A stretch of 64,000 nt of DNA, taken from the NCBI GenBank assembly GCA_002269645.1, contig NIVC01002839.1:1-64000 (forward strand), given 5' to 3'. The DNA is from Macrostomum lignano. Lineage: Eukaryota. The notes under the pieces were generated by a model that ran no database searches, was not told the origin of the DNA, and saw only the letters and a program-made list of their open reading frames with translations. Made by a program: the position numbers and the translations under genes. Below are positions 11,386-58,200 of the stretch, one piece after another (the stretch's first letter is position 1; each line of letters begins with the position of its first letter).

Positions 11386-14300
11386 CTATGGCTGCGGCTG
11401 CTGATGCTGCTGATGATGCCTGCCTGCTGAGTCAGGGTGAGTTGGGACAATTATTGCCACCGTTGTGCAAACTATTAAAATTTGAAATCTCTCCCCATTA
11501 TGAGGGACCAGGATTATTTCTCATGAGGGATCAGGATTCTTCCCCATTTTGAGGGATCAGGCTTCTTCCCCATTTTGAGGGATCAGGATTCTTCCCCATT
11601 TTGAGGGATCAGGAGTCTTCCCCATTTTGAGGGATCAGGATTCTTCCCCATTTTGAGGGATCAGGATTCTTCCCCATTTTGAGGGATCAGGATTCTTCCC
11701 CATTTTGAGGGATCAGGCTTCTTCCCCATTATGAGGGATCAGGATTCTTCCCCATTACGAGGGATCAGGATTCTTCCCCATTATGAGGGATCAGGATTCT
11801 TCCCCATTATGAGGGATCAGGATTCTTCCCCATTATGAGGGATCAGGATTCTTCCCTGTTTTGAGGGATCAATATTCTTCCCCATTATGAGGGATCAGGA
11901 TTCTTCCCTGTTTTGAGGGATCAATATTCTTCCCCATTATGAGGGATCAGGATTCTTCCCCGTTTTGAGGGATCAGGATTCTTCCCCATTATGAGGGATC
12001 AGGATTCTTCCCCATTATGAGGGATCAGGCTTCTTCCCCATTACGAGGGATCAGGAGTCTTCCCTATTATGAGGGATCAGGATTCTTCCCCATTACGAGG
12101 GATCAGGATTATTCCCCATTATGAGGGATCAGAATTCTTCCCCATTACGAGGGATCAGGATTATTCCCGTATTACGAGGGATCAGGATTCTTCCCCATTA
12201 TGAGGGATCAGGATTCTTCCCCATTATGAGGGATCAGGATTCTTCCCCATTATGAGGGATCAGGATTCTTCCCCATTATGAGGGATCAGAATTCTTCCCC
12301 ATTACGAGGGATCAGGATTATTCCCGTATTACGAGGGATCAGGAGTCTTCCCTATTATGAGGGATCAGGAGTCTTCCCTATTATGAGGGATCAGGAGTCT
12401 TCCCTATTATGAGGGATCAGGATTCTTCCCTATTATGAGGGATCAGGAGTCTTCCCTATTATAAGGGATCAGGATTCTTCCCCATTATGAGGGATCAGGA
12501 TTCTTCCCCATTACGAGGGATCAGGATTCTTCCCCATTTTGAGGGATCAGGCTTCTTCCCCATTTTGAGGGATCAGGATTCTTCCCCATTTTGAGGGATC
12601 AGGATTCTTCCCCATTTTGAGGGATCAGGATTCTTCCCTATTTTGAGGGATCAGGATTCTTCCCCATTATGAGGGATCAGGATTCTTCCCATAATGAGGA
12701 ATCTAGAGTGCTTCTTAGAAAACGCACTCATCTTACCTGCGGCGGCACCTCCAGCTCGCGCCCTCGAGCCCGACTGCTGCTGTTTGCTGTGGTCAGCGCC
12801 AGCCGAGTTGCTGGTAGCTCCGCCGCCGCCAAACTTGAGCATGTTCCAATCGAACACGTAGTCATAGGTGAACCCCTCCCGGTGGAACAGGTTGCGGAAC
12901 AGCTGCCTCAAATAGCTATAATCAGGCTTGTCGTCAAACCTCAAGGAGCGGCAGAAGTTCAAATAGGTGACAAACTCAGCCGGGTAGCCCTGGCACAGAG
13001 ACTCGACTGGGGTCTGCATTTTCTTCTCGCTAATCCGTTCGTACTTTTGTCGCTTTGTGTTGGCGCGCAGGCCTTGCCAGGGCAGGGCGCCGCGAAGGAA
13101 GTACAGGAACACGTAGCCTAGGGCTTCCATGTCGTCTCGTCTGGCTTGCTCTGATCAAGTGAATATTATATTCTTTTTGTATTATTCATTTAGGCATTGA
13201 AAAAACATACGAGACCTACCGCTAAGGAACTTGTATTAGTTATCTGGATCATCTCTGAAGCTAGAGCCCCATCACAGTGCTCAGCATCCCCTCTGTAGCT
13301 GGCAGCATCCCCTCTGTAGCTGGCATCATCCCCTCTGGAGCTGGCATCACCCCTCTGTAGCTGGCTTCATCCCCTCTGTAGCTGGCATCATCCACTCTGT
13401 AGCTGGCATCATCCACTCTGTAGCTGGCATCATCCACTCTGTAGCTGGCATCATCCACTCTGTAGCTGGCATCATCCACTCTGTAGCTGGCATCACCCAC
13501 TCTGTAGCTGGCATCACCCACTCTGTAGCTGGCATCACCCACTCTGTAGCTGGCATCATCCACTCTGTAGCTGGCATCACCCCCTCTGTAGCTGGCATCA
13601 TCCACTCTGTAGCTGGCATCCAGCTGCCCTACTATCAGTAGTAGGCTGTAACACACGCACCAATTCCAAGGTGAGTGTTGACGCTGGCATATCGCGCCGT
13701 GCCAGTGAGGTTCTTGTTCTCCCTGTACGGAATATGCTGATGCGTTCTGGAGTCGCGGTACTTCTTAGCCAAGCCGAAGTCGATGATGTACACCAGGTTG
13801 CCCTTCTTGCCCAAGCCCATCAGAAAGTTGTCAGGCTTCACGTCTCTGTGAAGAAAAGTTGCACAGAGCTAAAAATTAATCCGAAATTTATTGAAAATTT
13901 CACCCAGTGAGATTGGGGCATTTACACCCGAAATCTCACCCCGAGATTGGGGCATTTACACCCGAAATCTCACCCCATGAGATTGGGGCATTTACACCCG
14001 AAATCTCACCCCATGAGATTGGGGCATTTACACCCGAAATTTCACCCCATAAGATTTGAAGAATAAAACCAAAATATCACACTTAAGATTAGATCAAAAA
14101 GCAATATAATCTCACCTATGAATGAAATTCTTGCTGTGAATGAACTCAACCCTATTGAGCAGCTGGTCAGCCAACAGTAGCACAGTCTTTAGCCGAAATT
14201 TACGACCGCAAAAATTGAACAAATCCTCCAAACTGGGGCCAAGCAGCTCCATCACCATGACATTGTAATCACCTTCTGTGCCGCACCATTTAATAGTTGG

Positions 14301-14495
14301 TATGCCAACCCCACCTTGCATCAGCTTGTAGATCTTGCTTTCAATATGCAGCTGAGGATGCTTAGTGCGCACGCACTCCAGCTTGATGGCGACCTCTTCA
14401 CCATTGGTAATGTCTGTGCCAAGGTAGATGTCGCCAAAAGAACCGCTGCCAATCTTTCTACCCAACCTGTACTTGTTGCCAACCCTTAGCTCCAT
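11386..14495 (-). CDS. CSNK1D: Casein kinase I delta/epsilon, about 354 aa
   Basis: Exons 14495-14116, 13845-13661, 13150-12737 and 11471-11386 (last exon less certain). [61 protein letters not shown] acceptor at 14516-14511 just upstream of the ATG. Delta versus epsilon cannot be resolved. Confidence 0.95.
11495..12692. repeat. 26-bp minisatellite (GAGGGATCAGGATTCTTCCCCATTAT) filling CK1 intron 3, about 46 units
   Basis: Period 26 (11525, 11551). Confidence 0.96.
13275..13622. repeat. 21-bp minisatellite (CTGTAGCTGGCATCATCCACT) in CK1 intron 2
   Basis: About 16 units; source of ORFs 13261 and 13347. Confidence 0.95.
13895..14052. repeat. About 36-bp repeat x4 (GAGATTGGGGCATTTACACCCGAAATCTCACCCCAT) in CK1 intron 1
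   Basis: Four direct copies visible. Confidence 0.9.
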
Positions 14496-15699
14496 GGTGA
14501 CCAAGTTGGTCTGAAATGTTTTTACAATGTACAAGACATCATTATATATGACATAATGACAACGAGTTAGAAATAAGATAGAAAAGATTTTACAGATATT
14601 AAAACTGCCTATGTTTGCTTATTGATACTACTAGTGGGCTCCTAGTACTCAACTGCCTAACTTAAGACAATTGACTAAATAAATAATAGAATATTCTGAT
14701 AGAAAATATATTATTATCAAGAATAAGGTTATTTTTAGCTAAACTAGTTATATAATCAAAGTTGAAATATTGATTTTTTAAAGAATATCAAGCAAGTTTT
14801 AGACAATACTTCAGATAAATTTATTTGAATATCTTGTTTAGTCTTGCTCAACATTGAAAAATATTAAGATCTTGATATTTATTTAGTCATCTTAAAAATG
14901 ATTTTGATACTTCAGAACTTAAAAAAATTATACTATTTTTAATTCTATAACTGATTATTTATATATTTGAAAAAATATTAAACATTTCTATGGATAAGCA
15001 AATCTTAAAAAATAAATTATTACTAGGCCTATTATTTAGTATCATCTATATAATTGCTACCTTTAAAGCCAATGATTCTATTTTTTACAAATTTAGGCAT
15101 CTTATTAATGATAAAAGTTTTATAAATACTATTGCATTATTATTAACTCATTGTACTTAATTACTTTATAGACTTCATTAAGAAGATAATAAGCCAAATA
15201 AAGTATTTCCTTGGATACGCCCCTGGGTGGTAGTGTTGCTATAATGCTATGCCTATAATGCTATATTGAAATTGGGGAATATTTATTCCCCCTATATATA
15301 TTATTTTTCTCATTCAAAAAATATTTAAAAAATAAACCCAATAAAAATCCCAGTGTCAAAGCACGATAAACTATAGATTAACTTCCGCTCCAATTAAAGT
15401 TATTACTAAATTTGCAATTTGCAATTGCTTCCACCATAAACATGTCATGGGCAAAGCACAAAGAAGATAGATCTGACAGGTGTGTTCATTCATCTTGTAG
15501 TATTATCTTGTAATTTAAAGTGCTTAGTGTTTCGAAGTTGAAATGCTGACAAAATGCAAATTTTCTACATATTTTAAAGTTAAAGAATTATTTATTATGC
15601 TGTTTTTGTACAATTCTATTAGCTTTGTCAACTTGCGTATATTATAGACATTACTTTTTTCTTCGACTTCTAGACTTTGTTTTTCTAGAAAAAATTTGC

Positions 15700-16200: not shown

Positions 16201-16403
16201 ACAATTTTTTTCTTTCATAATAAAAGTTTCACTATTTGTATATACTTCAAGGACATATGAGTAATAAAATATTGCTTATAGACTATGACACTATAGGCAG
16301 TGGCAGATCTAGAATTTCATTTTGGGGGTGGGGCAGTCCAAGTTTAGGGTGCCAACATGAGGATAATGGGTGCCAATTTTTAAGTTAAGGGGTGCAAAAA
16401 ATG

Positions 16404-17116
16404 GGTATCTAGTCAATCCGGCAACAGACAATCTGGCGACAGTCAATCCAGTGACAGATGATCCGGCAACAAATATTAAATCAAGATATATCAGCATATA
16501 GTTAAGCTATTATTTTTAGCTCTTTATTATTACTTAGTAATACTTAAATAATTGAATAAAAATTACTTGAACTATAATTTTTGCAGTTTTATTTTTACAG
16601 CTATATATAGCTGTTGATTTTCAAAATGTTATTTTCAAAGAAAGGTTGTGTTTTGCTGGCTAATTTTTCTAGATCGTTTTAGCTAAATTTTAGATTAACT
16701 TCTTTCTGAATACAATTTTATCAGTTAAATCTGCTTGGAAATCAAATTTGTATGACTATGATCCAATATTATATTCTACACTATTTGCTTTTTCGCATGT
16801 TGATATAAATATAAAATTCGGCGGTAAAAAACAAGCTAAGCCTATTTTTTAGGCTTTCTTTGAAAATGACATTTTGAATATCAACAGCTATAACTTATAA
16901 GTACAGCAGTAATAACTGCAACAATTGTAGTTTAAGTAATTATTATTAAAGTATTTAAGTACAAGTACAAAGAGCTAAAAATAGTAGCTCAACTAATCCG
17001 TATATATGCTAATATATGTTGATTTAATATCTATCGCCGGATCGTCTGTCGCCAGATTGACTGTTGCCAGATTGTTTGTTGCCAGATCGTCTTGTCGCCG
17101 GATTGTCTGGAAGCCC
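16404..17116. mobile_element. MITE B with long TIRs and subterminal CAATCCGGCGACAG repeats (MULE/foldback-like), nested in A
   Basis: About 130-bp inverted arms (16404-16530 vs 16965-17116); flanking direct repeat AAAAATG; element D shows the empty site. Confidence 0.75.
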
Positions 17117-17224: not shown

Positions 17225-17696
17225 CAGGGGTATAGCCAAAGGGGGGGGGGTCATGGGGGTCATGACCAATGGTAGATCTAGAATTTCATTTTGGGGAGGT
17301 CCAAGTTTGGGGCACCAACACAAGTATAAGAGGCACCAATTTTTAAGCTAGAAGGTGCCAAAATGCGTGTATGGGGGGAAAAGTCAAACTTAAGTGCATA
17401 TAAAGGCATTGAGGGGCAAAAAAATCAAGTTTAGGGGATGCAAACTCAGGTTTTGGGGGGCGCAATATGTTCTTTCAAGCTTTTGGGGAGGCCGCTGCAC
17501 CCTGCCCCCTCCTTTTTTGTACAAAAATTGTCCTAAATCCACCCCTGGTCATGACCCCCCCCAGCCTGCTGATCCAGGCCAAATTTTCAGCACCCCATCT
17601 CCCCCGTCATAGAGGCCTAGCACCCCCTGCCCCCAGTTGCTACTGTGAGCCTATGACTATGACCCCCCTCAGAAGGAAATCCTGGCTATGTCACTG
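17225..17696. mobile_element. hAT-type MITE C nested in A
   Basis: Left TIR CAGGGGTATAGCCA; right TIR reverse complement CAGTGACATAGCCA; exact 8-bp TSD GGCACAAT at 17217-17224 and 17697-17704. Confidence 0.87.
17267..17547. mobile_element. hAT-type MITE D (281 bp, same family as A) nested in C
   Basis: Left TIR CAATGGTAGATCTAG; right TIR reverse complement CAGGGGTGGATTTAG; exact 8-bp TSD GTCATGAC at 17259-17266 and 17548-17555; body colinear with A. Confidence 0.88.
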
Positions 17697-25965: not shown

Positions 25966-27608
25966 AGGAATCTCCTAAGGTGCGTGAAAATCGAATAGTC
26001 TATGTGGTAATCCCCTTCCATGTAGGAACCCGCCTATTCCGCGTGATAATCCAATCCCTATACTAAAAATGGTTTTCCTATCTATAATAGTGCTCAATTT
26101 TACAACCTTTACAATTTCCAGCTTATGTCAGCGATGGTCTGCCCAAATAAATGTTCAAGCGCCGTTTATTGAAACCAGCTTAATGTATAACAAGTTTTAT
26201 TGATATTTACTGAACATAACACATTACTGAAACAGCATGTTCTCATTAGCGACATAATATTCTGGATTTTTTTAGTTATATTCCCAGGAAAAAAGGTATA
26301 GGTGACATTTATAACCTCTATATGCATATCTACCTACATGTGAACGCTAATAGAGACTAACAGCTTCAAAATGGACAGCTCTCTTGATACCTTTTACTTT
26401 CCTATATCATTTCTATCATTCTATGGTTGTCGTGTTTATTGGCAATGAGTTCAAACTATCGCTACTATTAGTAGGGCATTTCTTGTTTCAATCTTAGCAG
26501 AACTTATTTTTAGTTTATTGCGTGTTGAGTTATGAATATGTCTGTTTAGAGATTTCGGTTCAAAATTCAAGTCAATTCCTTTTAAAAGCCATGAAATGCC
26601 TTATTTGAGTATTTAAATTAATAATCATCAATCAATATTGCTTCAGGTGCGCAACATGCCTGCCGTACTTAAATTTCTGAAAATATTTTTGTACTTTCAA
26701 CAATAATATACACTATGCATGCAAAAAACTTGACATTTATTTTATAAAAAGAAAATACCTATTATTTTCAATGAGCAGTGCCATAACTGCAGTTATAAAA
26801 ATATTTGTGTTTTTATTGTATTCAATGTTTTGTCAACAGTAGAAGCAGCCGCTGTGAGAGATGTGACCCGGTGTTTTTGTGATGAAGTTGAATGGCTTTT
26901 ATCTTGATTTCGACTCCTTCAAATTGAAATTAAAATTGGACATCACCTGGGCTGCCTCCCTGCAAAAATAATGCCAGGAATTATGGACTGGCATTCCATT
27001 AGGATGTTGAGTTGACAAAATACATATGCGATGTTTAAAACGATTTAAAGCCAATTGTCCAGCTTCCATGGAGTATTTCGAGATTATCTGAGTGGACTGG
27101 ACTAAACTTAGCATAAGATGGGTAACTACGCGTTTCTGGGAAAACTTTAGGTGGTAGGTTTTGCCGAAGAATGCACTATTTCGTTTCATTTTTCAGCAGA
27201 ATTGTTATTGATTTTGATACGTCTTGCCTTTCTTAAAGCTCTATTGATATTCATAGTTAACAGTGATAAAATATAACCCTGAGTAGATGTCATCATGGGA
27301 ATTTTGACGATTTCTAGGCTTTTTCACTTTATCCCCCCTTAGATCATCAACTGCTAAAATCTATTTAAACATAATTAATTCCCTAACACCTAAAAGCAAC
27401 CACCCCATCAAAATACTTACAACTACTAGTCTGAGGGGATTTTGTTTTTTTGTGCCAAAACCCCCAGTAAAAAATCAACACCTAACACCTGACACCCATC
27501 ATCTGACACCCAACACCTGACACCCATCATCTGACAACCAACACCTAACACCCGACACCTAAATCCTAAACCCTAGAGCAATTTCTTTGCAGCTCTATCT
27601 GCTTTTCG

Positions 27609-27788
27609 TCATTGCATACCACAGATACTATATAACTGTATATAGCATGACTTTTCATACAGAAAAGTCATACACAGGTCATCGCAGATGTCGTTGTTAA
27701 GCTCTTGAAGTATAAAGTCTGAGCGATAAATTTTCTGTCCTTTTAAGTAATTTCTTAGTTCTTCGGGTGGAGCTGTTCCATAGTTATC
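27609..27788 (-). pseudogene. C-terminal fragment of a Polinton/adenovirus-type cysteine protease (adenain)
   Basis: Translates DNYGTAPPEELRNYLKGQKIYRSDFILQELNNDICDDLCMTFLYEKSCYIQLYSICGMQ*. Matches the D-S-Y-G..PP and Q-x6-C-G-x2-C-x2-FL pattern, with G changed to D after the Cys. Confidence 0.75.
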
Positions 27789-27789
27789 A

Positions 27790-28260
27790 GGTGTCAGGTG
27801 TCAGGTGTTGGTGTCAGATGCTGGGTGTCAGATGTTGGGTGTCAGATGATGGGTGTCAGATGTTGGGTGTCAGATGATGGGTGTCAGATGTTGGGTGTCA
27901 GATGATGGGTGTCAGGTGTTGGGTGTCAGATGATGGGTGTCAGGTGTTGGGTGTCAGATGATGGGTGTCAGGTGTTGGGTGTCAGATGTTGGGTGTCAGA
28001 TGATGGGTGTCAGGTGTTGGCTGTCAGATGTTGGGTGTCAGATGATGGGTGTCAGGTGTTGGGTGTCAGATGCTGGGTGTCAGATGCTGGGTGTCAGATG
28101 TTGGGTGTCATGTTGGGTGTCAGATGATGGGTGTCAGGTGTTGGGTGTCAGATGTTGGGTGTCAGATGATGGGTGTCAGGTGTTGGGTGTCAGATGATGA
28201 GTGTCAGGTGTTGGGTGTCAGATGATGGGTGTCAGGCGTTAGGTGTCAGGCGTTGGGTGT
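27790..28260. repeat. 14-bp minisatellite (TGGGTGTCAGATGA) in the right Polinton arm; short inverted copy at 27478-27560
   Basis: Direct observation. Confidence 0.93.
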
Positions 28261-28904
28261 CATCGCTTAAAATCCGCTTAGATTAGTAGTTGTAAGCATT
28301 GCGATGGGGTGGTTGGTTTTAGGTGTTAGGACATTATGTTTAAATAGATTTTAGTAGTTGATGATCTAAGGGGGATACTCGTAAATTGAAAAAGCATAGA
28401 AATCGCCAAAAGTCCCATGATGACATCTACTACCCTGGACTGCTACTCGTCAGCACATTGCGAATGTATATACTAATTTTAGTTCTTGAGGAGACCTACA
28501 TGTACTGATCCCAATTAGATTGCCAGGCCTTTAGCCAACTATAAACAGTACAGGTATAATCCAAAACAAATAAAATCAACCTCATTATTTAATAAAGTAT
28601 AAAAGTATAAGTTACACTTTCAATATAGTGAAACTTTATTTTCAAAGCTTCGGTTTTGTTGATAAACAATATTGATACATAAGTTTATTATTATAATTAT
28701 AAAACCATGTGTTTAACTACTTTAAATAAGTTGGTTGAAGATAAATGTAGTTCGCAAAAATACAATTAAATCAATAAAGAACGATTGAAAAAATACAGTC
28801 CACAGTTTAGCAGTTACAAAAGTACAAGTACAAAAATGCCGTTAAAAATACATCAATTGTGAGTTACATAAAGATGAAAAGCAATGAGAAATAGACGCGG
28901 AACT

Positions 28905-29620
28905 AATCATGTAGACTCGGAACTCACGAGATTGAGAAGTAGACTCAGAACTCGTGAGATTGAGAAGTAGACTCGGAACTCGTGAGATTGAGAAGTAGAC
29001 TCACGAGATTGAAAAGTAGACTCTGAACTCATTAAATTGAGAAGTAGACTCGGAACTCATAAAATTGAGAAGTAGACTCGGAACTCATTAAATTGAGAAG
29101 TAGACTCGGAACTCATAAAATTGAGAAGTAGACTCGGAACTCATGACATTGAGAAGTAGACTCGGAACTCATGACATTGAGAAGTAGACTCGGAACTCAT
29201 GACATTGAAAAGTAGACTCGGAACTCATGAGATTGAGAAGTAGACTCGGAACTCATGAGGTTGAGAAGTAGACTCGTAAGATTGAGAAGTAGACTCGGAA
29301 CCCATGAGGTTGAGAAGTAGACTCGTAAGATTGAGAAGTAGACTCGGAACTCATAAAATTGAGAAGTAGACTCGGAACTCATTAAATTGAGAAGTAGACT
29401 CGGAACTCATGAGATTGAGAAGTAGACTCGGAACTCATGACATTGAGAAGTAGACTCGGAACTCATGACATTGAAAAGTAGACTCGGAACTCATGACATT
29501 GAGAAGTAGACTTGTGAAATTGAGAAGTAGACTCATGAGATTGAGAAGTAGACTCATGAGATTGAGAAGTAGACTCATGAGATTGAGAAGTAGACTCATG
29601 AGATTGAGAAGTAGACTCGG
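28905..29620. repeat. 28-bp minisatellite (GAGATTGAGAAGTAGACTCGGAACTCAT) with 20-bp variants, just 3' of the LIG1 stop
   Basis: Direct observation. Confidence 0.94.
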
Positions 29621-34600: not shown

Positions 34601-36173
34601 ATAGATACCACAGGTAGATGATTAGCTACGATGGATACCACAAGTAGATAATTAGCTATCAAAGTTACTGGTAGGTGTTAAGCACCTTCTTCTGCTGCGC
34701 GGCATTCCCAGAGAGATCGGCCACCTCGCGTAGCCGCTGAAATACGCCGGCAACAGTCAGAGGTTTCGGCTGGCACATCACAGCTTGACGCGAACGTAGC
34801 GACTCGCTCACTGCGCCAAGATCGCCGACAACTTGAGCACGTTGGCGAATTTTATCTACGGTAGAGCCGGTGCTCAAAGCCATGGCTTTTATCAGCACGG
34901 AGTCACCGACGCCCAGTTCAACAGCCTCGTAAGCTGGCGCCAACTGATTCAAGCACAGATAGACGCACGGCAGCAAATCTTTAGGGCTGAGCAGACGAAC
35001 TGAACGAAGAAAATTGCATAGCAACTCTAAGATTCTTAACCGGCCAGGCGTGGCCTCGATGGCTTCGAATGTTTTGGCCAGAGCCAAGTAGGGCACCGGC
35101 TGGCCGCTCGACCAGCTCGCATCCTCTATGGGATCGTAGCGAGCTTTGCCGGGATTATAACCCGATTCTTCCTTCGGCTGCTGCTCAGACGGCGCTTCAG
35201 CTGCTGTCTTCTTCTCCTGGTCCGATTTTTCAACCTCTTTTACCTCGGCGGCGATTTTGTTTGCCTGCTTCTTTTCCGGCTTACTTGTGGCAGATTTTTT
35301 CCTGGCTACTTTTGGTTTTGCGTCAGATTTCGGTTTTGTGTCAGATTTCGGTTTTGTGTCAGATTTCGGTTTTGTGTCAGATTTCGGTTTTGTGTCAGAT
35401 TTCGGTTTTGTGTCAGATTTCGGTTTTGTGTCAGATTTCGGTTTTGCGTCAGATTTCGGTTTTGTGTCAGATTTCGGTTTTGTGTCAGATTTCGGTTTTG
35501 TGTCAGATTTCGGTTTTGCGTCAGATTTCGGTTTTGTGTCAGATTTCGGTTTTGTGTCAGATTTCGACGGTTTCGGTTTCAATTTAGATTTGCTTTTATC
35601 GGAAGCAGATTCGGAAGCGGCAGATTCGGAAGATGACGAGGAGGAAATCATTCGGCGACGCTTGGCAGGCGGAGATGGAGAATCCTGTTGTTGCTGAGGC
35701 GACGACAAAGACTCATCGTTGGATTCAGAATCAGAGGAACCGGACTCAGACTCAGCCTTCTTTCGCTTGTTCCGCTTGTCTTGTTTATCTGGCCCATCTA
35801 AAGACAATTTATTTTCTTTCTTAATTGTCGAAGTCTCCGCTTTCGAAGTCGGCGACTTCACCTTCGCGTCGGTAGTAGTCTTTGTTGGCGGTGTGGTCGA
35901 TAAAGGGCGTCGAGTACTATCGGTGATAATAGTACTACTATCTGACTGTGCCGCAGAAGAGGCGGCAGTTTTCGAGAAGAAAGAAGTGATGGAACGTTGT
36001 TGCTGCTTCTGGCTTCCATTTTGCTGTTGCGGCATTGCGCAGGGCGAGTTTAAGATAGATAGTATTGACGTTGTTCGTACAAACAATGGGCTTGAGCAAT
36101 GAAGGAAAACAGCCGACACACCTTTCTGACGTATTAAGGATGGCGCTAGTAACGTTAATAAACGAGGTAGCAT
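29657..36173 (-). CDS. LIG1: DNA ligase I (ATP-dependent): 1002 aa from AUG1, 956 aa from AUG2 at 36035
   Basis: Exons 36173-34686, 34183-33882, 32076-31725, 31318-31002, 30206-29657, all in frame. PIP box QRSITSFF, motif [38 protein letters not shown]. Confidence 0.96.
30545..30985. repeat. 25-bp minisatellite (GTAGACAAGGTAGACAGGTGACACG) in LIG1 intron 4
   Basis: 25-aa (3 x 25 bp) periodicity in overlapping ORFs. Confidence 0.94.
31440..31716. repeat. (TGTC)n/(TGCC)n microsatellite in LIG1 intron 3
   Basis: Direct observation. Confidence 0.96.
32300..33722. repeat. 22-bp minisatellite (CCACTTCCCGTTTTCTAAGAAT / ...CTAATAAA) in LIG1 intron 2, about 65 units
   Basis: Alternating variants with larger block duplications. 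Confidence 0.96.
34235..34660. repeat. 30-bp minisatellite (AGATACCACAGGTAGATAATTAGCTACCAT) in LIG1 intron 1
   Basis: 10-aa periodicity of ORF 34217. Confidence 0.93.
35311..35565. repeat. Coding 18-bp minisatellite in LIG1 exon 1, encoding about 14 KPKSD(T/A) units
   Basis: CGGTTTTGTGTCAGATTT units, in frame within the LIG1 N-terminal region. Confidence 0.96.
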
Positions 36174-49857: not shown

Positions 49858-51176
49858 TAGTCTATGAAATTTGCTTGCGAGAAGTTTGCTTGCCGAAGTT
49901 TGCTTGCAGGACTTTTGCTTGTGGAATTTTGCTTGCCAAAGTTTGCTTCCTGAAGTTTGCTTGCGGAATTTTGCTTGCCGAAGTTTGCTTGCCAAAGTTT
50001 GCTTGCAGGAATTTTGCTTGCCGAGGTTTGCTTGCCGAACTTTGCTTGCGGAATTTTGCTTGCCGAAGTTTGCTTGCCGAAGTTTGCTTGTGGAATTTTG
50101 CTTGCCGAGGTTTGCTTGCCAAAATTTGCTTGTGGAATTTTGCTTGCCAAAGTTTGCTTGCCAAGCTTTGCTTGCGGAATTTTGCTTGCCGAAGTTTGCT
50201 TGCCGAGCTTTGCTTGTCAAAGTTTGCTTGCCGAAGTTTGCTTGCTGACTTTTGCTTGCAGGAAATTTGCTTGCTGCACATAAGCTTGCCGAAGTTTGCT
50301 TGCGGAATTTTGCCTGCCAAACTTTGCTTGCCGAATTTTGCTTGCAGTAACAGTTTTACTATTACTGATCCCTAACTACCTATATTGAATCTCTAATCAT
50401 TATACGAGTCGTATATATTGTACTAATTCTTAGAATGAAACTCTATACACCTAGTTTGAAAGCTTAGTATCAAGTCAGTTTATGTCGACGCTGATAAGAA
50501 TCCACTTGCAAAGCAACTGTAGTATGTAATAATTGACTTACCAACTTCACAAGCCAGCAAACAAGCAAGCAAACAAGAAAATAATCTGGCAAGTTAAAAC
50601 CTTGCAATTGTTATTGCAAATTTTTAGGAAGCAGACATTAAAATTCTGCAAGCAAACTTTGGCAAGCAAAATTCCGCAAGCAAAATTCCGCAAGCAAACT
50701 TCAGCAAGCAAACCTCAGCAAGCAAAATTCCTGCAAGCAAATTTCTTGCAAGCAAAGTTTGGCAAGCAGACTTTGGCAAGCAAAATTCCACAAGCAAACT
50801 TCGGCAAGCAGACTTTGGCAGGCAAAATTCGGCAAGCAAAGTTTGGCAAGCAAAGTTCGGCAAGCAAAATTCCACAAGCAAAGTTTGGCAAGCAAACCTC
50901 GGCAAGCAAAATTCCGCAAGCAAACTTTAGCAAGAAAACTTTGGCAAGCAAAATTCCGCAAGCAAAGTTCGGCAAGCAAACTTCGACAAGCAAAGCTCGG
51001 CAAGCAAACTTCGGCAAGCAAAATTCCTGCAAGCAAACTTCGGCAAGCAAACTTCGGCAAGCAAAATTCCGCAAGCAAAGTTCGGCAAGCAAAGTTCGGC
51101 AAGCAAAGTTCGGCAAGCAAAATTCCTGCAAGCAAAGTTCGGTAAGCAAACTTCCCGCAAGCAAATGTTATACTCC
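49858..51176. mobile_element. Foldback/MULE-like non-autonomous element with inverted minisatellite arms
   Basis: Left arm of TTTGCTTGC units (49865-50345) mirrors right arm of GCAAGCAAA units (50640-51167); 10-bp direct repeat CCATTATGCT at 49848-49857 and 51177-51186. Confidence 0.75.
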
Positions 51177-54100
51177 CCATTATGCTATATACCTAAATGC
51201 AAATTGATATATCCATTTTTGGCCAAACCAAAATGCATATCATTTTTTGGCAGATGTATGCCAGAATTGTCTAGCATGATGTATACTTTCTAGACAATCT
51301 AGAGTAAAATATAATGATGAAAATAAAAGGAAAAACAGTCTTTTAGTATAGTAGATATAATATTGAGCTAGTAACTAACTTTGTATACTATCAAATTTAA
51401 ATATGATAACATCATAGTTATCAATAGTCACATAGTAACAAATCTTGAACTTTTTAAGATCTCATAACCAAGATTAAGGTTTAAAAAGTGCAAAGATCTT
51501 AATGATCAAGATCAAGATCTTATTTGACTCCTACCTGACTCTTTATTTGACTCCTAACAAGGTTAGGCTATAGTAACAAGGTTGACAATGCACAAAATAG
51601 GCCTAGTCTAGGCCTAGGGTTTATTATAGCATGGTTTTCTAATTGGCTATAACTATAATAAGCTATATACCATATTGCAGAAGGTTTTCTATGTATGGCG
51701 GACACATTTTCATTGAATTTTTAATTATACGCCAACAAATTTTAAATGTACACCAACTAATGTGCGCCAAAAAAACAAAACAGAAACTAAATATAACCAG
51801 AAGTCAGAATCAGAACAGTGTATTATAATTATAAACGGTTTAATGGTAAAAAATCAATGAAAATTTAAATTTAAATTTAAATTACAAAAAATTGATAATA
51901 AAATGACAATTGTCATGATGATTCCAATAATTAAAATGATTAGTAAATGAGAAAATAGTAGCAGAAAAATGGTTTTTGAAATAACTTAACAGAGAAAAAT
52001 GCATAAAAAAATTCTTTAATTTGTATGCTAATCATGTATGCTACACTGTACACTACACTTACACTATACACAGCCAAGAGGAAGAAATGTACACTGGTGT
52101 ATGCCACAGAACTCAAGTGTAGGCTGGAAAATTCCAGCATACACCCCCCCTTCTGCAATATGGGCTATATAATTTATTCTTTAGTTGATTATTACCAGAA
52201 GGCATATATAGGATAAAAAATTGCATTCCAAATTTACTTTTAATTCATTTAATCTTTATAAGCAAAAAATATTTCTTAATTTAATAGATAGGCCTACAAC
52301 TTACAATACATTTTTGTGTTTAATTTTAAAATATATAGGCCAGATATTCACCTAGTCCTAAGTCTATTTTGTAGATAAACCCTTATTTGTTTATTAAAAT
52401 GATCTATAAAAACTACTAAAGACTAAAGTACAAGGCCTAAGCCTAAGGCTACCTAAAAGGCTAAAATCTGCTTGACACTTTGGGTTAGGGGCCTAGTTAG
52501 TATTTTTTAGTTTAGGTCATGATAGGTAAGGTAAGCCTAGGCCTAATTTCCTAAATGAAATGCTGCTGAATTGCAACTCAAAAATACATATCTGATGCAC
52601 ACTAAAACTAAGGTAAAAACTTCACTCTGCCTAGAAAATAAAGTGACTTGTAAGACATTAGAAATGTAAGATGTATCGAGCCCTTTGTGTCTTTCGACTC
52701 GGGAGTCGAGTTGTCAAAAAAAAGAATTTTGCAAAAACCTAGCCAGTAGCCTAGCCTGCCAGTCATACCTTAGCCTTAAATTTTATTTCAAGATTTACTT
52801 CTTTTAAAACCATGAAATTCAATACTACTAATACGACTGAGGCGCTGATTTATCACTATTTATTTATTATGTTTATCGTACGTACCAGTCACATAATACA
52901 AAGTTGATTTTTGAATAATAGAAAAAAAAATAAAAAACGGTCGAAAGTTAAAAGTAAATTCTGTCTAAATTATAGAGTTAAAACAAATCTTAAAAGTAAA
53001 ATAAAAAAGGTATCATCAAGCAAAACTTTTGCTCAAAAAATGTAAAAAAACTCTGACGAAATTAATACTGTTAAAAAATATTTGCGGTGCACCTATTTTG
53101 CCTTGAAGACACCCGTCCGCCTGTTGGAAAAAATGAACTCAATACTCAAGCGTTTTGAAGTATATCCTACACTTTGAACATCTCCTCAGTCCTCACGTGA
53201 ATTTTCAACTAGCTATTGAAGCAAAACTTTTTTCTATGTATATGAGGTTTTTTCTTAAGTTTATTTAGTCTAATCTGAAGTAATTAAAGTCTATATTCGC
53301 GTCGATAAGCCAAACGTTCTTTATACATGCAAGTTATTGTTTAGATTTTTTCCAATTTTCAGTAAAGTGAACATTTTAATCTATTAGCGAAAAAAGTGCA
53401 AAATAATAGCGCGTCAGTCACACAGTTTACACCAAAATAAAGAATGCTACAAAAATTATAACCCTATGGTTAAGTCTATAAGCGTCTAGGTGGACTTTCT
53501 GGCAATGTTCGTTGTTACATGAGCTCGGAGCCGGACAAATAAAGCGAAGTTTTTTCCCCGTAGCGGACGAATAACTAGTGCAATTTTGAAAACCACCGAT
53601 CTGTGTATCTTCTTAACAGTTTCTTGTCATCCACATAACTTAATGTCGGATTCGGGACATACTGAAAATCTGTGTACATCATGTAAACTATAGTCTCCGT
53701 CTGTTTACTTTTAGCAATACATTTTAGTACATGTATATGAGAACCACTACTAATAGATGTCAACATCACCTAAGCCGATTTGAAATGCAATACCGAGAAT
53801 TACGAGCGTATTATCAATTAATCAAACAGCTTATTGCATGCATCAGGAAACGTAAATTCCTGATGCATGCATCAGGAAGTGTAAAAAGTGTGTTAAAAAA
53901 GAACACTTGTAGTTTAATAATTAAAAGCGATGGGCTGCTATGTCGGCTAGCTATTGGTAACACACGGCTGAATTAGTTGATCCCGTTGTATTTGTTAGAA
54001 TTTGAAAATTGGTTGTAGAAAATAACACAGAAATATTGATGTTGACAGTTTAGTGAGTAAAAAAAGACTACGCACAGTGAATGCAAAGTGCAGGATTTCC

Positions 54101-55264: not shown

Positions 55265-58200
55265 TAGTGTCTGTCTTAGTGTCTGTCTGTCTGTCTGTCT
55301 GTCTGCCTACCAATCAATCGACCTGTCCATCAATCTAGAATTATAATACAATCGCCACTCACAGTGAGATTGTCGCGAAGCAGCTGCATAATAAGAGTCG
55401 AGTCTTTGTACGAGTCCTCGGCAAGCTCGTCCAGGGCAGCGATAGCGTCGTCGAATGCCTTGCAGTAGCAGTAAAATTAAGACAAAAGTAACAACCAGAT
55501 TAAGAATCAGCTGATTAAAAAAGCCCAGAAGCCAACAGGTAAACAAAGGTAAACAAACCAACCTTTTTAGCCAGCGCGCAAGCAGTTGTTGGCGAATTAC
55601 GAATCTCGTAGAAGAACACGGAATAATTTAGAGCCAGGCCGAGTCGAATTGGATGAGTAGTGGCCAGCTCGCTCTCAGCGTAGCCAGTGGCGGCTTTGTA
55701 AGCCTGCTCAGAGCTGTCAACAACCGCGTCTCGTTCAACCCCGGAGGCCACCTCGGCTAGGTAGCGAAAATAGTCGCCCTTCATCTTGTAGTAGAACACC
55801 TTGGACTCGGGATTGGACGCGTTGGCAATGAGAAAGTCGTCAAGCAGGGTCTGGCGGCGGTTGGTTGAGTTAAAAATTAATGAAAGTAACAGAAAGTAAC
55901 TAGATCTGATGGATGACTTCGCGCTGGAGCAATCAATAATAAAAGGACTTGGTAAATAATTACTTTATTAGCTTCAGGAAAGGCGAGCCTCAATAGTCAA
56001 CAAGAAGACTTAAGACCAGGTAACAAACTGGGCTTTCTAATTTGAAATGCTTTCTAATTTGAATATGCTTTCTAATTTGATTCTTCTTAACTTTAATAAA
56101 ATTCAAACTTAAATGCCTTTAATGAAGATGATTGCAATCAATTTTTAGCCTTTCTTAGTCGTGGAACACCCTGGCTTTCTGCAGCTTATGGCAAAGGCTT
56201 TGCCAAAATACAGAGTGCCTGGCCAAATTTTTTTTGCTGAAAAAGTTATCCTGGACATCTACTGCAAAGTCTGTCAGCATGTACACAAGAGCTGAATGGA
56301 TGTCCATGAAGAGAAAATGGTTAGTAGTTAGTTCAACTGCTCACTTTATGATCAACTTCTCTCAATTTAGAGTGTAGTGTTGCTATGCAGTGCACCTATT
56401 GAAAGAGTATCAACTGGTATAAACATTGCTAAGGCCCTTAATGAAGCCATTGACCAGTTCAATGTATGCTAGAAGATTGTCACCATCATAACAGACAAGT
56501 GATCATAAATGTGCATAGCTCTTCAGGAACTGGAAATTCCAAGGCAGTCTTGTGTCATTTACAAACTGCAAAACTGCATCCGGGACAGTATTCTAGATGA
56601 TGCTAAGACAGCATCTGCTTATTTTTCCATCAGAGATGCAATTGTTAAATGTTGTTTAAATGTGTGTCACTTTTCTACTTCTCTAAAGGCTTATCAAGAG
56701 TGGCCAGAGCTCTGCATTGAACTTGGTACTAAGTCAATGAAGTCCCTCATTTAAGATTTGCAGACATGCTGGGACTCCTGGCTTGCCATGCTTGAGTTGT
56801 TTTGCAACCAGACTCTTGTTGTCTAAATGTGCTAGGAACAGTGCTAGATATTACTTGCTAGTAGCACTTAATCAAGCAGACTAGGATCTTATTGATGCTA
56901 TTATCTATAGCTTGAAGTCCTTCAAGGATATTGCAATTGCCATCTCTAATGTTATCTACAAGGGGTGTCCAAAAAGTAGTGGGAATTTTCAATGTAGTTC
57001 ATAGCAAGAGTCAGATACATAATTGGCGTTGACATTTCATGAAAGCGGCTTTATTAATGAATGTCCCATAAATATACTAGTTTGGGCTCTATGCCCCACT
57101 CACTTTGTCTTTTCAATTTAACTCTAATTTATAATCATTTATTATTTTCTTTACATTAGATAAAAACTATTTTGATACTATCATACTGTTTTTGCCATTT
57201 TGCATACTATGGTATATAAGTGATAGTAGATTTTAGAGTTTTTTGCAATTTGGCATGCAAACCAAAAATACTATGTATATTCAATAAAATTAAAAAGTTT
57301 CTACCTTACAGTGTGCAATAAATTCTTGTTCAGTAGTGACTTTTGAATGACGCAACTTGCACCATGTGATGCAAAGTTTGTGTTGGATAAAGAGGGATTG
57401 GGAAGAGCAAAGGGAAAAGATTGGATAGGTTGAAGCTTTTGCCTAGAGATTGGACAATATCACATTTTTAGATCTTTGAGACCTAAGATTTTATGCTTTT
57501 GATATAATTGAGAATTAATCAAGATTCAAGATTAAGCTTAATTAGCATCTAATAGGCCTATTTACACAATTCTATCTTCTATCAGTACTAATATTATTAC
57601 CTGTTAAATGTGTACAATGATGATAGTAGAAAGAAAAACAATTATATAATATTGAGCTTATAAGTAACCTGATATAAATAAAATATAAATTTGATAATAT
57701 TGTAATCACTATTTATAAATCTAGACTTTGTTTGAGATCCTAAAACCAAGATTGATTTTGAAAAAAGTGCCAAGATCTTGATGATCAAGAATGATATTGG
57801 TATCTTGTCTAACCTCTACTTTTGCCCAGTTTTAATTGTTTTTAAAGCATTTTTTAATATTAAAATGGTTGGCCAAGTGCTAGACACTGGTCAAGACACT
57901 GCTCACTAGGGCAAAAGGTGGCAAATTTTCAATGTTGCTGAGTATATATAGTAGGCCCTATATGATTTGCACTATGATATATATAGAGATAGTGGTGATG
58001 GTAATGCAAAACTCTATCCAACAAGGCCTTATTCCAAGGTATGGTTTTGACAATAAAGATATTGTAATTTCCTTAGGCCAATCATATAAAAAACCTAGAT
58101 CTATACCTAAAAAATTATATAAGAGGGTTGTTCAGAAAGTCCATGATCAATTGTGTCAAACAGATTAATAGATTAAACAAATGTAATGCTAGTCTTCCTA

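What the first reader, a model, noticed from the sequence alone, without database searches (positions are those of the whole stretch)
27282..28431. Miniature non-autonomous Polinton/Maverick retaining a viral maturation-protease remnant
Seen: a 1150-bp element with ~155-bp TIRs starting AGTAG, an exact 6-bp TSD (ACCCTG), inverted 14-bp minisatellite arms and a 59-codon frame missed by the ORF track. That frame has the adenain layout: acidic residue in DNYG..PP, and Gln and Cys seven residues apart (Q115/C122 spacing); the catalytic His lies beyond the deletion breakpoint at the minisatellite. Established: 6-bp TSDs, AG termini, long TIRs and an adenovirus-like protease define Polintons, normally 15-20 kb virus-like elements. 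Inference: a >90% internal deletion derivative, implying a Polinton/adintovirus lineage in this genome and perhaps a MITE-like satellite family mobilised in trans. CpGs are retained, consistent with a young or unmethylated insertion.
Basis: partly seen in the sequence, partly recalled or inferred. Interest (0 to 1): 0.8.

Follow-up and report, generated by a model that had tools for sequence, protein, structure and literature searches.

The report
Miniature Polinton relic with protease fragment
This is a 1.15-kb leftover of a giant virus-like transposon (a Polinton/Maverick) in an animal genome that has kept its two ends and a broken piece of its viral protease gene; such leftovers are a known kind, and it would matter mainly if many copies of this tiny form turn out to be copied around by intact helpers.

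Summary
Window 27282-28431 (1150 bp) has imperfect ~155-bp terminal inverted repeats starting AGTAG, an exact 6-bp target-site duplication, inverted 14-bp minisatellite arms and a minus-strand protease remnant. The peptide alone hits neither Pfam nor PDB. It does find five relatives among 1.84 billion proteins (E 2e-9 to 4e-6). Their profile ranks adenovirus adenain first in PDB, and a model of the best hit ranks an adintovirus adenain first among viral folds. New here: the remnant runs further than reported. After a frameshift near 27660 it continues almost to the protease's natural end, so it is the whole C-terminal half, decayed. The ends differ by about 9%, and CpG content matches the flanks, so 'young' is not supported. 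Best reading: a Polinton that lost its interior, probably by a microhomology join to its own minisatellite, and encodes nothing functional. No parent or second copy could be tested, so trans-mobilisation is open (about even odds). Non-autonomous Polintons are known (zebrafish families of 10-15 kb); this one is about ten times smaller than those. Interest is moderate.

The parts
27282..28431 (.). Whole element, 1150 bp: internally deleted Polinton/Maverick derivative
27276..27281 (+). Left copy of the 6-bp target-site duplication (ACCCTG)
28432..28437 (+). Right copy of the 6-bp target-site duplication (ACCCTG)
27282..27436 (+). Left TIR core (~155 bp), begins AGTAGA; first 19 bp identical to the other end
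28276..28431 (-). Right TIR core (~156 bp); 137 matches, 14 mismatches, 9 gap columns of 160 against the left core
27437..27476 (+). Spacer between left TIR core and left array; poorly matched and shorter on the right side (end asymmetry)
   Evidence: alignment, unit parse
27477..27574 (+). Left minisatellite arm (7/14-bp units, about 6 copies of 14 bp), fading gradually at its inner edge
27660..27788 (-). Adenain-family protease remnant, first piece (about 44 codons): catalytic acid, oxyanion Gln and catalytic Cys positions; no start codon, catalytic His absent
27602..27658 (-). Protease remnant, second piece after a frameshift near 27660: about 19 codons matching the family's last helix; this frame stops at 27566-27568 in the edge of the left array
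27647..27671 (.). Perfect 10-bp inverted repeat with a 5-nt loop; the frameshift maps in or next to the loop (a 7-bp one lies at 27628-27645)
   Evidence: (4 of 2000 dinucleotide shuffles reach a 10-bp stem)
27787..27789 (-). Deletion junction: the right array ends abruptly on the protease's Asp codon and shares two bases with it (possible microhomology)
   Evidence: sequence directly; match start
27789..28262 (-). Right minisatellite arm, about 33.5 copies of the same 14-bp unit in inverted orientation

Best explanation
It is an internally deleted, non-coding derivative of a Polinton/Maverick (adintovirus-type) element. Shown: two long inverted ends starting AG, a 6-bp target duplication, and the C-terminal half of an adenain-family maturation protease gene that is truncated, frameshifted and without its catalytic His. 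Inferred step 1: a Polinton retroviral-type integrase made the insertion, because a 6-bp staggered cut gives this duplication. Inferred step 2: the interior (polymerase, integrase, ATPase, capsid genes, first half of the protease gene) was lost when copying or repair switched from the middle of the protease gene to the element's own sub-terminal minisatellite; the junction is abrupt and shares two bases. One such event suffices if the protease was the last gene, facing the left end. That fits the tail frame stopping in the gradually fading edge of the left array. Inferred step 3: the remnant has since decayed without selection. The element makes no working protein but keeps the ends an integrase binds and the panhandle a protein-primed polymerase is proposed to use, so it could move only with a helper. 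Within this reading I put about 0.45 on its having been copied as a miniature and about 0.41 on a one-off relic that lost its interior at this site.
For: TIR, TSD and ends. Five relatives at E 2.4e-9 to 3.8e-6, 48-61% identity, in 1.84 billion proteins. Peptidase_C5 matches in 7 of 12 relatives at E up to 0.01. The profile of those 12 ranks adenovirus proteinase 1avp first in PDB, E 2.4e-6, and aligns to the window peptide with probability 99.1. The model of the best hit (pLDDT 88) ranks Terrapene adintovirus adenain first among viral folds, E 6.8e-9, TM 0.78, and adenovirus proteinase first in PDB. The family is large (5640 of 8000 scored candidates at E up to 1e-10) and short, mostly 120-160 aa among the 120 listed. 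Tail in a second frame: 4 of 5000 shuffles, 0 of 200. Polintons have 6-bp TSDs, AG-type ends and this protease. In animal datasets most large adenain-bearing contigs carry Polinton-type PolB and an integrase.
Against: No parent element and no polymerase, integrase, ATPase or capsid remnant was seen. None of the 124 relatives held carries an informative name or known gene context, so 'Polinton-encoded' is inferred for them. The peptide alone scores nothing relevant in Pfam or PDB, and only 1 of the 5 first hits passes the Peptidase_C5 cut-off. The end reads AGTAGA, one base off each of the two common vertebrate motifs. Adenain-like proteases also occur in virophages and giant viruses. Inverted minisatellite arms occur in two other small elements of this window, so they are not diagnostic.
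Confidence: 0.86

Rival explanations
1. Within the Polinton reading: a full-length element inserted here, later lost its interior in place, and the miniature never moved.
For: One copy in 64 kb. Ends and protease piece both look decayed. 96% of vertebrate Maverick loci are degraded, and Polinton remnants of several sizes are described in C. elegans.
Against: The outer 19 bp and the TSD are perfect while the rest of the TIR differs by 9.3%. Under uniform decay this has probability 0.16 x 0.56, about 0.09: a weak hint that the ends were used after the TIRs diverged.
Confidence: 0.41
2. A foldback- or MITE-like element of another DNA-transposon superfamily captured a piece of a Polinton protease gene.
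For: Two other small elements with inverted minisatellite arms lie in the same window (16416-17087, 49863-51172). IS3EU/GingerRoot also make 6-bp TSDs.
Against: IS3EU/GingerRoot ends are TA..TA or TG..CA, not AGT..ACT. AG ends, a 6-bp TSD, a long TIR and an adenain fragment would have to coincide. Neither of the other two elements shares sequence with this one.
Confidence: 0.06
3. The parent was another integrating adenain-bearing virus (a Polinton-like virus, virophage-like or MELD-type element with a retroviral-type integrase) and not a Polinton in the strict sense.
For: The protease fold is shared with MELD viruses, adomaviruses, virophages and giant viruses. The defining polymerase and integrase cannot be seen.
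Against: The top viral fold match is an adintovirus adenain, the host is an animal, and the end motif and TSD fit Polintons.
Confidence: 0.08

Closest known systems
Non-autonomous Polintons of zebrafish (Polinton-1N1_DR, -2N1_DR, -4N1_DR)
   Same: Polinton-class elements named as N families, filed under Maverick. The N suffix marks non-autonomous families in the same database's usage.
   Different: Listed lengths are 15,469, 11,092 and 10,436 bp against 1,150 bp here. Those are multi-copy families; this is one copy so far.
Autonomous Polintons/Mavericks (adintoviruses), e.g. Terrapene box turtle adintovirus, vertebrate Mavericks
   Same: 6-bp TSD, AG-type ends, TIR within the 46-1,447-bp range, adenain-type protease.
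   Different: Intact ones are 12.7-24.6 kb with pPolB, integrase, ATPase and capsid genes, all absent here. The protease is usually internal in vertebrate Mavericks. In the cane toad the gene modules point outward, and butterfly Polintons carry adenain inside the TIRs, so a terminal position has precedent.
Degraded Polinton remnants (C. elegans eri-6/7 locus; eroded vertebrate Mavericks; polB-less butterfly Polintons)
   Same: Partial, non-coding or gene-depleted Polinton leftovers.
   Different: In the passages read, those are one-ended remnants, eroded large copies or large gene-bearing elements. None is described as a two-ended, TSD-flanked element near 1 kb.
MITE / foldback-type non-autonomous DNA transposons
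   Same: Short, non-coding, long inverted arms with internal tandem repeats; helper-dependent (recalled).
   Different: MITEs are defined by high copy number and derive from cut-and-paste transposase families (recalled). Copy number is untested here, and the helper would be a virus-like element.

Membership tests
Polinton/Maverick | 6-bp target-site duplication | tested here: met
   definition
Polinton/Maverick | Long terminal inverted repeats (about 50-1500 bp) | tested here: met
   ~155-bp core, imperfect; range
Polinton/Maverick | AG..CT ends with a short terminal tandem motif, (AGT)2 or (AG)3 in vertebrates | tested here: inconclusive
   Ends are AGTAGA..TCTACT: AG..CT met, five of six bases of either vertebrate motif; invertebrate motifs not checked
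Polinton/Maverick | Adenovirus-like maturation protease gene (PRO/adenain) | tested here: met
   As a broken C-terminal half; assignment is through relatives, not by a direct Pfam or PDB hit
Polinton/Maverick (autonomous) | Protein-primed PolB and rve integrase genes; ATPase and capsid genes; 13-25 kb | tested here: not met
   The element is 1150 bp, and its only non-repeat interior (about 215 bp) is the protease piece
Polinton/Maverick (derivative) | Ends shared with a full-length Polinton in the same genome | not testable with these tools
   No eukaryotic genome collection; none in the window
Non-autonomous Polinton family / MITE-like | Several copies with the same junction and different TSDs | not testable with these tools
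   1 copy in the 64-kb window; rest of the genome not available
Adenain (Peptidase_C5) functional enzyme | His, acidic residue and Cys triad with oxyanion Gln in one intact frame | tested here: not met
   His half missing, frameshift near 27660, departures at two nearly invariant positions
IS3EU/GingerRoot | TA..TA (or TG..CA) ends with 6-bp TSD | tested here: not met
   Ends are AG..CT against the definition

The most novel reading that the evidence does not exclude
This is one copy of a MITE-sized (about 1 kb) Polinton satellite family. It would be made once by a minisatellite-guided deletion and then spread by the integrase (and perhaps the polymerase and capsid) of an intact Polinton, like a defective-interfering genome of an endogenous DNA virus. 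Such a family would set an upper bound of about 1.15 kb, and possibly only the ~155-bp ends, on the cis-sequence needed for Polinton movement. It would also show whether strict TIR identity is dispensable.
Probability: 0.38. Interest if true: 0.6.

Novelty: new member of a known kind. Interest (0 to 1): 0.38.

Why it matters
As it stands, it marks a Polinton/adintovirus lineage in this animal genome and gives a probe (the TIR core) for finding the parent. If the miniature proves to be a multi-copy family, it would be about ten times smaller than the non-autonomous Polintons I could see listed. It would then be a natural deletion map of what Polinton ends need in cis, for a transposition mechanism that is so far characterised mainly in silico. 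If it is a single copy, it is an ordinary, neatly preserved relic.

Tried and rejected
Direct Pfam scan of the peptide: only an EMP70 match at E 0.03, below cut-off. PDB sequence search: 0 hits at E up to 10. Word-indexed search of longer proteins: 2 candidates, none scoring. ESM Atlas: all shown scores under 0.9, leads only, though toward CE-clan proteases. A second copy, parent piece or His-bearing half in the window: none. The tblastn pile at 51014-51169 (9 hits, best E 0.002) lies in an unrelated minisatellite and was set aside. Rfam over 26500-29000: 2 weak matches, both outside the element and far below cut-off. Flanking open frames: no Pfam match. CpG as an age marker: rejected. The idea that the sequence after the 10-bp hairpin is a fold-back insertion ending the homology: disfavoured, because the protease tail resumes in another frame; why the hairpin is there stays unexplained. 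The 0-of-1000 figure is flattered because that null also shuffled a few matching codons; the own-frame test (4 of 5000) and (0 of 200, but null maximum 65.5 against 65.6) are the fairer ones. The Gln-Cys spacing count (7 in 61, 9 in 55 of 116) was not used, since the pattern can pick an earlier Gln. Whole-element fold only restates the inverted repeats and has no control. The founding Polinton paper is not held. Host species: not determined.

Full report
Observation. The element is in the sequence as described. Positions 27282-28431 span 1150 bp, begin AGTAGA and end TCTACT, and are flanked by ACCCTG on both sides. Of 56 boundary pairs tried, only this one gives a 6-bp duplication. A whole-window scan for inverted ends with a flanking duplication returned this pair and otherwise only 13 pairs inside an unrelated minisatellite at 49.9-51.1 kb. 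The TIR core is about 155 bp: the first 19 bp are identical, and overall there are 137 matches, 14 mismatches and 9 gap columns of 160. Inside it lie inverted arrays of one 14-bp unit, about 6 copies on the left and 33.5 on the right. The left array fades gradually at its inner edge; the right one stops abruptly. Only about 215 bp of the interior is unique. No second copy is in the window.

The protease remnant. The minus-strand frame 27609-27800 gives 63 residues, the first four from the minisatellite. Alone it hits nothing relevant in Pfam or PDB, and a word-indexed search of longer proteins failed. An exhaustive search of 1.84 billion proteins gave five hits at E 2.4e-9 to 3.8e-6 with 48-61% identity. 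Four of the five are 122-156-aa proteins with the His-Trp, Asp, Gln and Cys layout. Three of the five match Peptidase_C5 at E 0.007 or better, one above its cut-off. I aligned 12 of the 22 relatives then held, without the window peptide. Seven of the 12 match Peptidase_C5 at E up to 0.01. Their profile ranks adenovirus proteinase first in PDB, E 2.4e-6, with African swine fever virus S273R close behind at 6.1e-6. It aligns to the window peptide at probability 99.1. A model of the best hit (pLDDT 88) ranks Terrapene box turtle adintovirus adenain first among viral folds, E 6.8e-9, TM 0.78, and adenovirus proteinase first in PDB. A profile of 101 more distant relatives, found through that alignment and so not fully independent, picks this frame alone out of 3194 six-frame pieces of the window: E 3.8e-9, next best 0.33. 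The family is large, 5640 of 8000 scored candidates, but none of the 124 proteins held has an informative name or known context. That they are Polinton-encoded is inference.

The match in the reported frame covers profile positions 68-114 of 133. A different minus-strand frame, from about 27658 to 27602, matches the family's last helix. Scored on its own, 4 of 5000 dinucleotide shuffles reach it. Read through with X at the break, the match extends to position 131, and 0 of 200 shuffles reach it, though the null maximum was 65.5 against 65.6. So the remnant is the whole C-terminal half of the gene, broken by a frameshift near 27660. The break falls in or beside the loop of a perfect 10-bp inverted repeat at 27647-27671, which 4 of 2000 shuffles match; whether the hairpin caused the break is unknown. 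The remnant also departs from the family at the position after the catalytic Cys (shared by 116 of 116 relatives where the motif was found, of 124) and at the position after the catalytic acid (117 of 118). The His-bearing half is absent from the element and from the window. The piece is a pseudogene fragment.

Age. CpG observed/expected is 0.58 in the non-minisatellite parts and 0.72 in the flanks, so it says nothing about age. The two ends differ at 9.3% of aligned bases, and the remnant is decayed. Neither fits a fresh derivative. The perfect outer 19 bp and perfect TSD together have about 0.09 probability under uniform decay, a weak hint that the ends were used after the TIRs diverged. Assembly error was not excluded, although long host exons nearby are open.

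Setting. The host is an animal: spliced genes for a rhodopsin-type GPCR, a kinase, a phosphatase-family enzyme, DNA ligase, an RGS protein and 14-3-3, packed with minisatellites (77 rows). The element lies about 1.2 kb beyond the last DNA ligase exon and about 2.2 kb beyond the last long open frame of the convergent gene. The architecture recalls Macrostomum-type flatworm genomes; this is recalled and untested. Two other small elements with inverted minisatellite arms lie at 16416-17087 and 49863-51172, so such arms are a local habit and not a Polinton marker.

How it most likely works. Shown: ends, TSD and the broken protease half. Inferred: a Polinton retroviral-type integrase inserted it, since 6 bp is the Polinton TSD length and Maverick ends are AG-type. 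The interior was lost by a switch from the middle of the protease gene to the right array, where the junction is abrupt and shares two bases. One deletion suffices if the protease gene was terminal and faced the left end. The tail frame stops at 27566-27568 in the fading edge of the left array, and outward-pointing or terminal arrangements have precedent. A second junction near 27575-27600 is not excluded. The element encodes nothing functional and could move only with a helper. I give Polinton derivation 0.86, split about 0.45 for a copied miniature and 0.41 for deletion in place. Another integrating adenain-bearing virus gets 0.08 and capture by another TIR superfamily 0.06. IS3EU/GingerRoot share the TSD length but have TA or TG ends.

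Comparison with what is known. It works like a non-autonomous Polinton. It fails the test for an autonomous one (no polymerase, integrase, ATPase or capsid), and linkage to a parent could not be tested. Non-autonomous families are named in zebrafish, with listed lengths of 15,469, 11,092 and 10,436 bp (the copy column there probably counts fragments). Degraded Mavericks are the rule, 96% of vertebrate loci, and remnants are described in C. elegans. Polintons lacking polB that seem to have kept moving are reported in butterflies. In ten full-text searches and the passages read, I saw no two-ended Polinton derivative near 1 kb and no Polinton report for Macrostomum. That is weak evidence: most listed papers were seen only as listings, and Repbase, Dfam, the founding papers and bioRxiv supplements were not visible.

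Papers seen. Passages: PMC3014272, PMC6431247, 10.1101/2023.08.22.554363 (36, 78), PMC5753468, PMC4028283, 10.1101/2025.02.07.637071 (44), PMC9341505, PMC5499653, PMC8502044, PMC11296320, PMC10045372, PMC8504770. Passages and named sections: PMC8097293 (section 7 in 79) and 10.1101/2024.01.15.575659 (sections 6 and 7 in 35, 71). Supplement rows only: PMC9341512 (files 1 and 4 not searched). Nothing seen, recalled only: Kapitonov and Jurka 2006 (not held) and Pritham et al. 2007. The adenain numbering Q115/C122 and the gene names OCRL and LIG1 are recalled.

Verdict. Real, and correctly identified as Polinton-derived. The protease remnant is longer and more decayed than reported, 'young' is unsupported, and the satellite-family idea is untested. 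It is a new member of a known kind, interest 0.38. If a family of copies is found it becomes a size variant worth about 0.6.

Noticed in passing
window 16416-17087: Small element with 242-bp inverted arms (78.5% identity) that start with a 15-bp minisatellite in opposite orientations. It sits between two copies of another repeat (about 16300-16410 and 17270-17440). No clear target duplication by eye.
   Followed up: partly
window 49863-51172: Element made of two inverted arrays of a 14-bp unit (about 34 and 37 copies) around a 290-bp spacer, apparently TA-flanked; a foldback- or MITE-like element unrelated in sequence to the finding.
   Followed up: partly
window 27628-27671: Two adjacent perfect hairpins (7-bp and 10-bp stems) inside the protease remnant, at the frameshift; the 10-bp stem is matched by 4 of 2000 shuffles. 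Cause or function unexplained.
   Followed up: partly
window 27382-27412 versus 27477-27505: The TIR core holds a degenerate copy of the minisatellite unit (76% over 21 bp), which suggests the arrays grew from the element's own end sequence.
   Followed up: no
window 1-64000: Minisatellite and microsatellite arrays are very dense (77 Tandem Repeats Finder rows), many apparently in introns of otherwise conserved genes, each with a different unit.
   Followed up: no
window 14112-14618 and 12651-13154 (minus): A kinase gene whose translated start resembles casein kinase 1 (name recalled; Pfam gives Pkinase) with a large first coding exon.
   Followed up: no
window 34991-35636: An 18-bp tandem repeat lies inside the open first exon of the DNA ligase gene and encodes a repeated six-residue Lys/Ser/Asp-rich tract in its N-terminal region.
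   Followed up: no
window 51355-51511 and 57644-57790: A dispersed direct repeat of about 150 bp at 72% identity, probably another repeat family.
   Followed up: no
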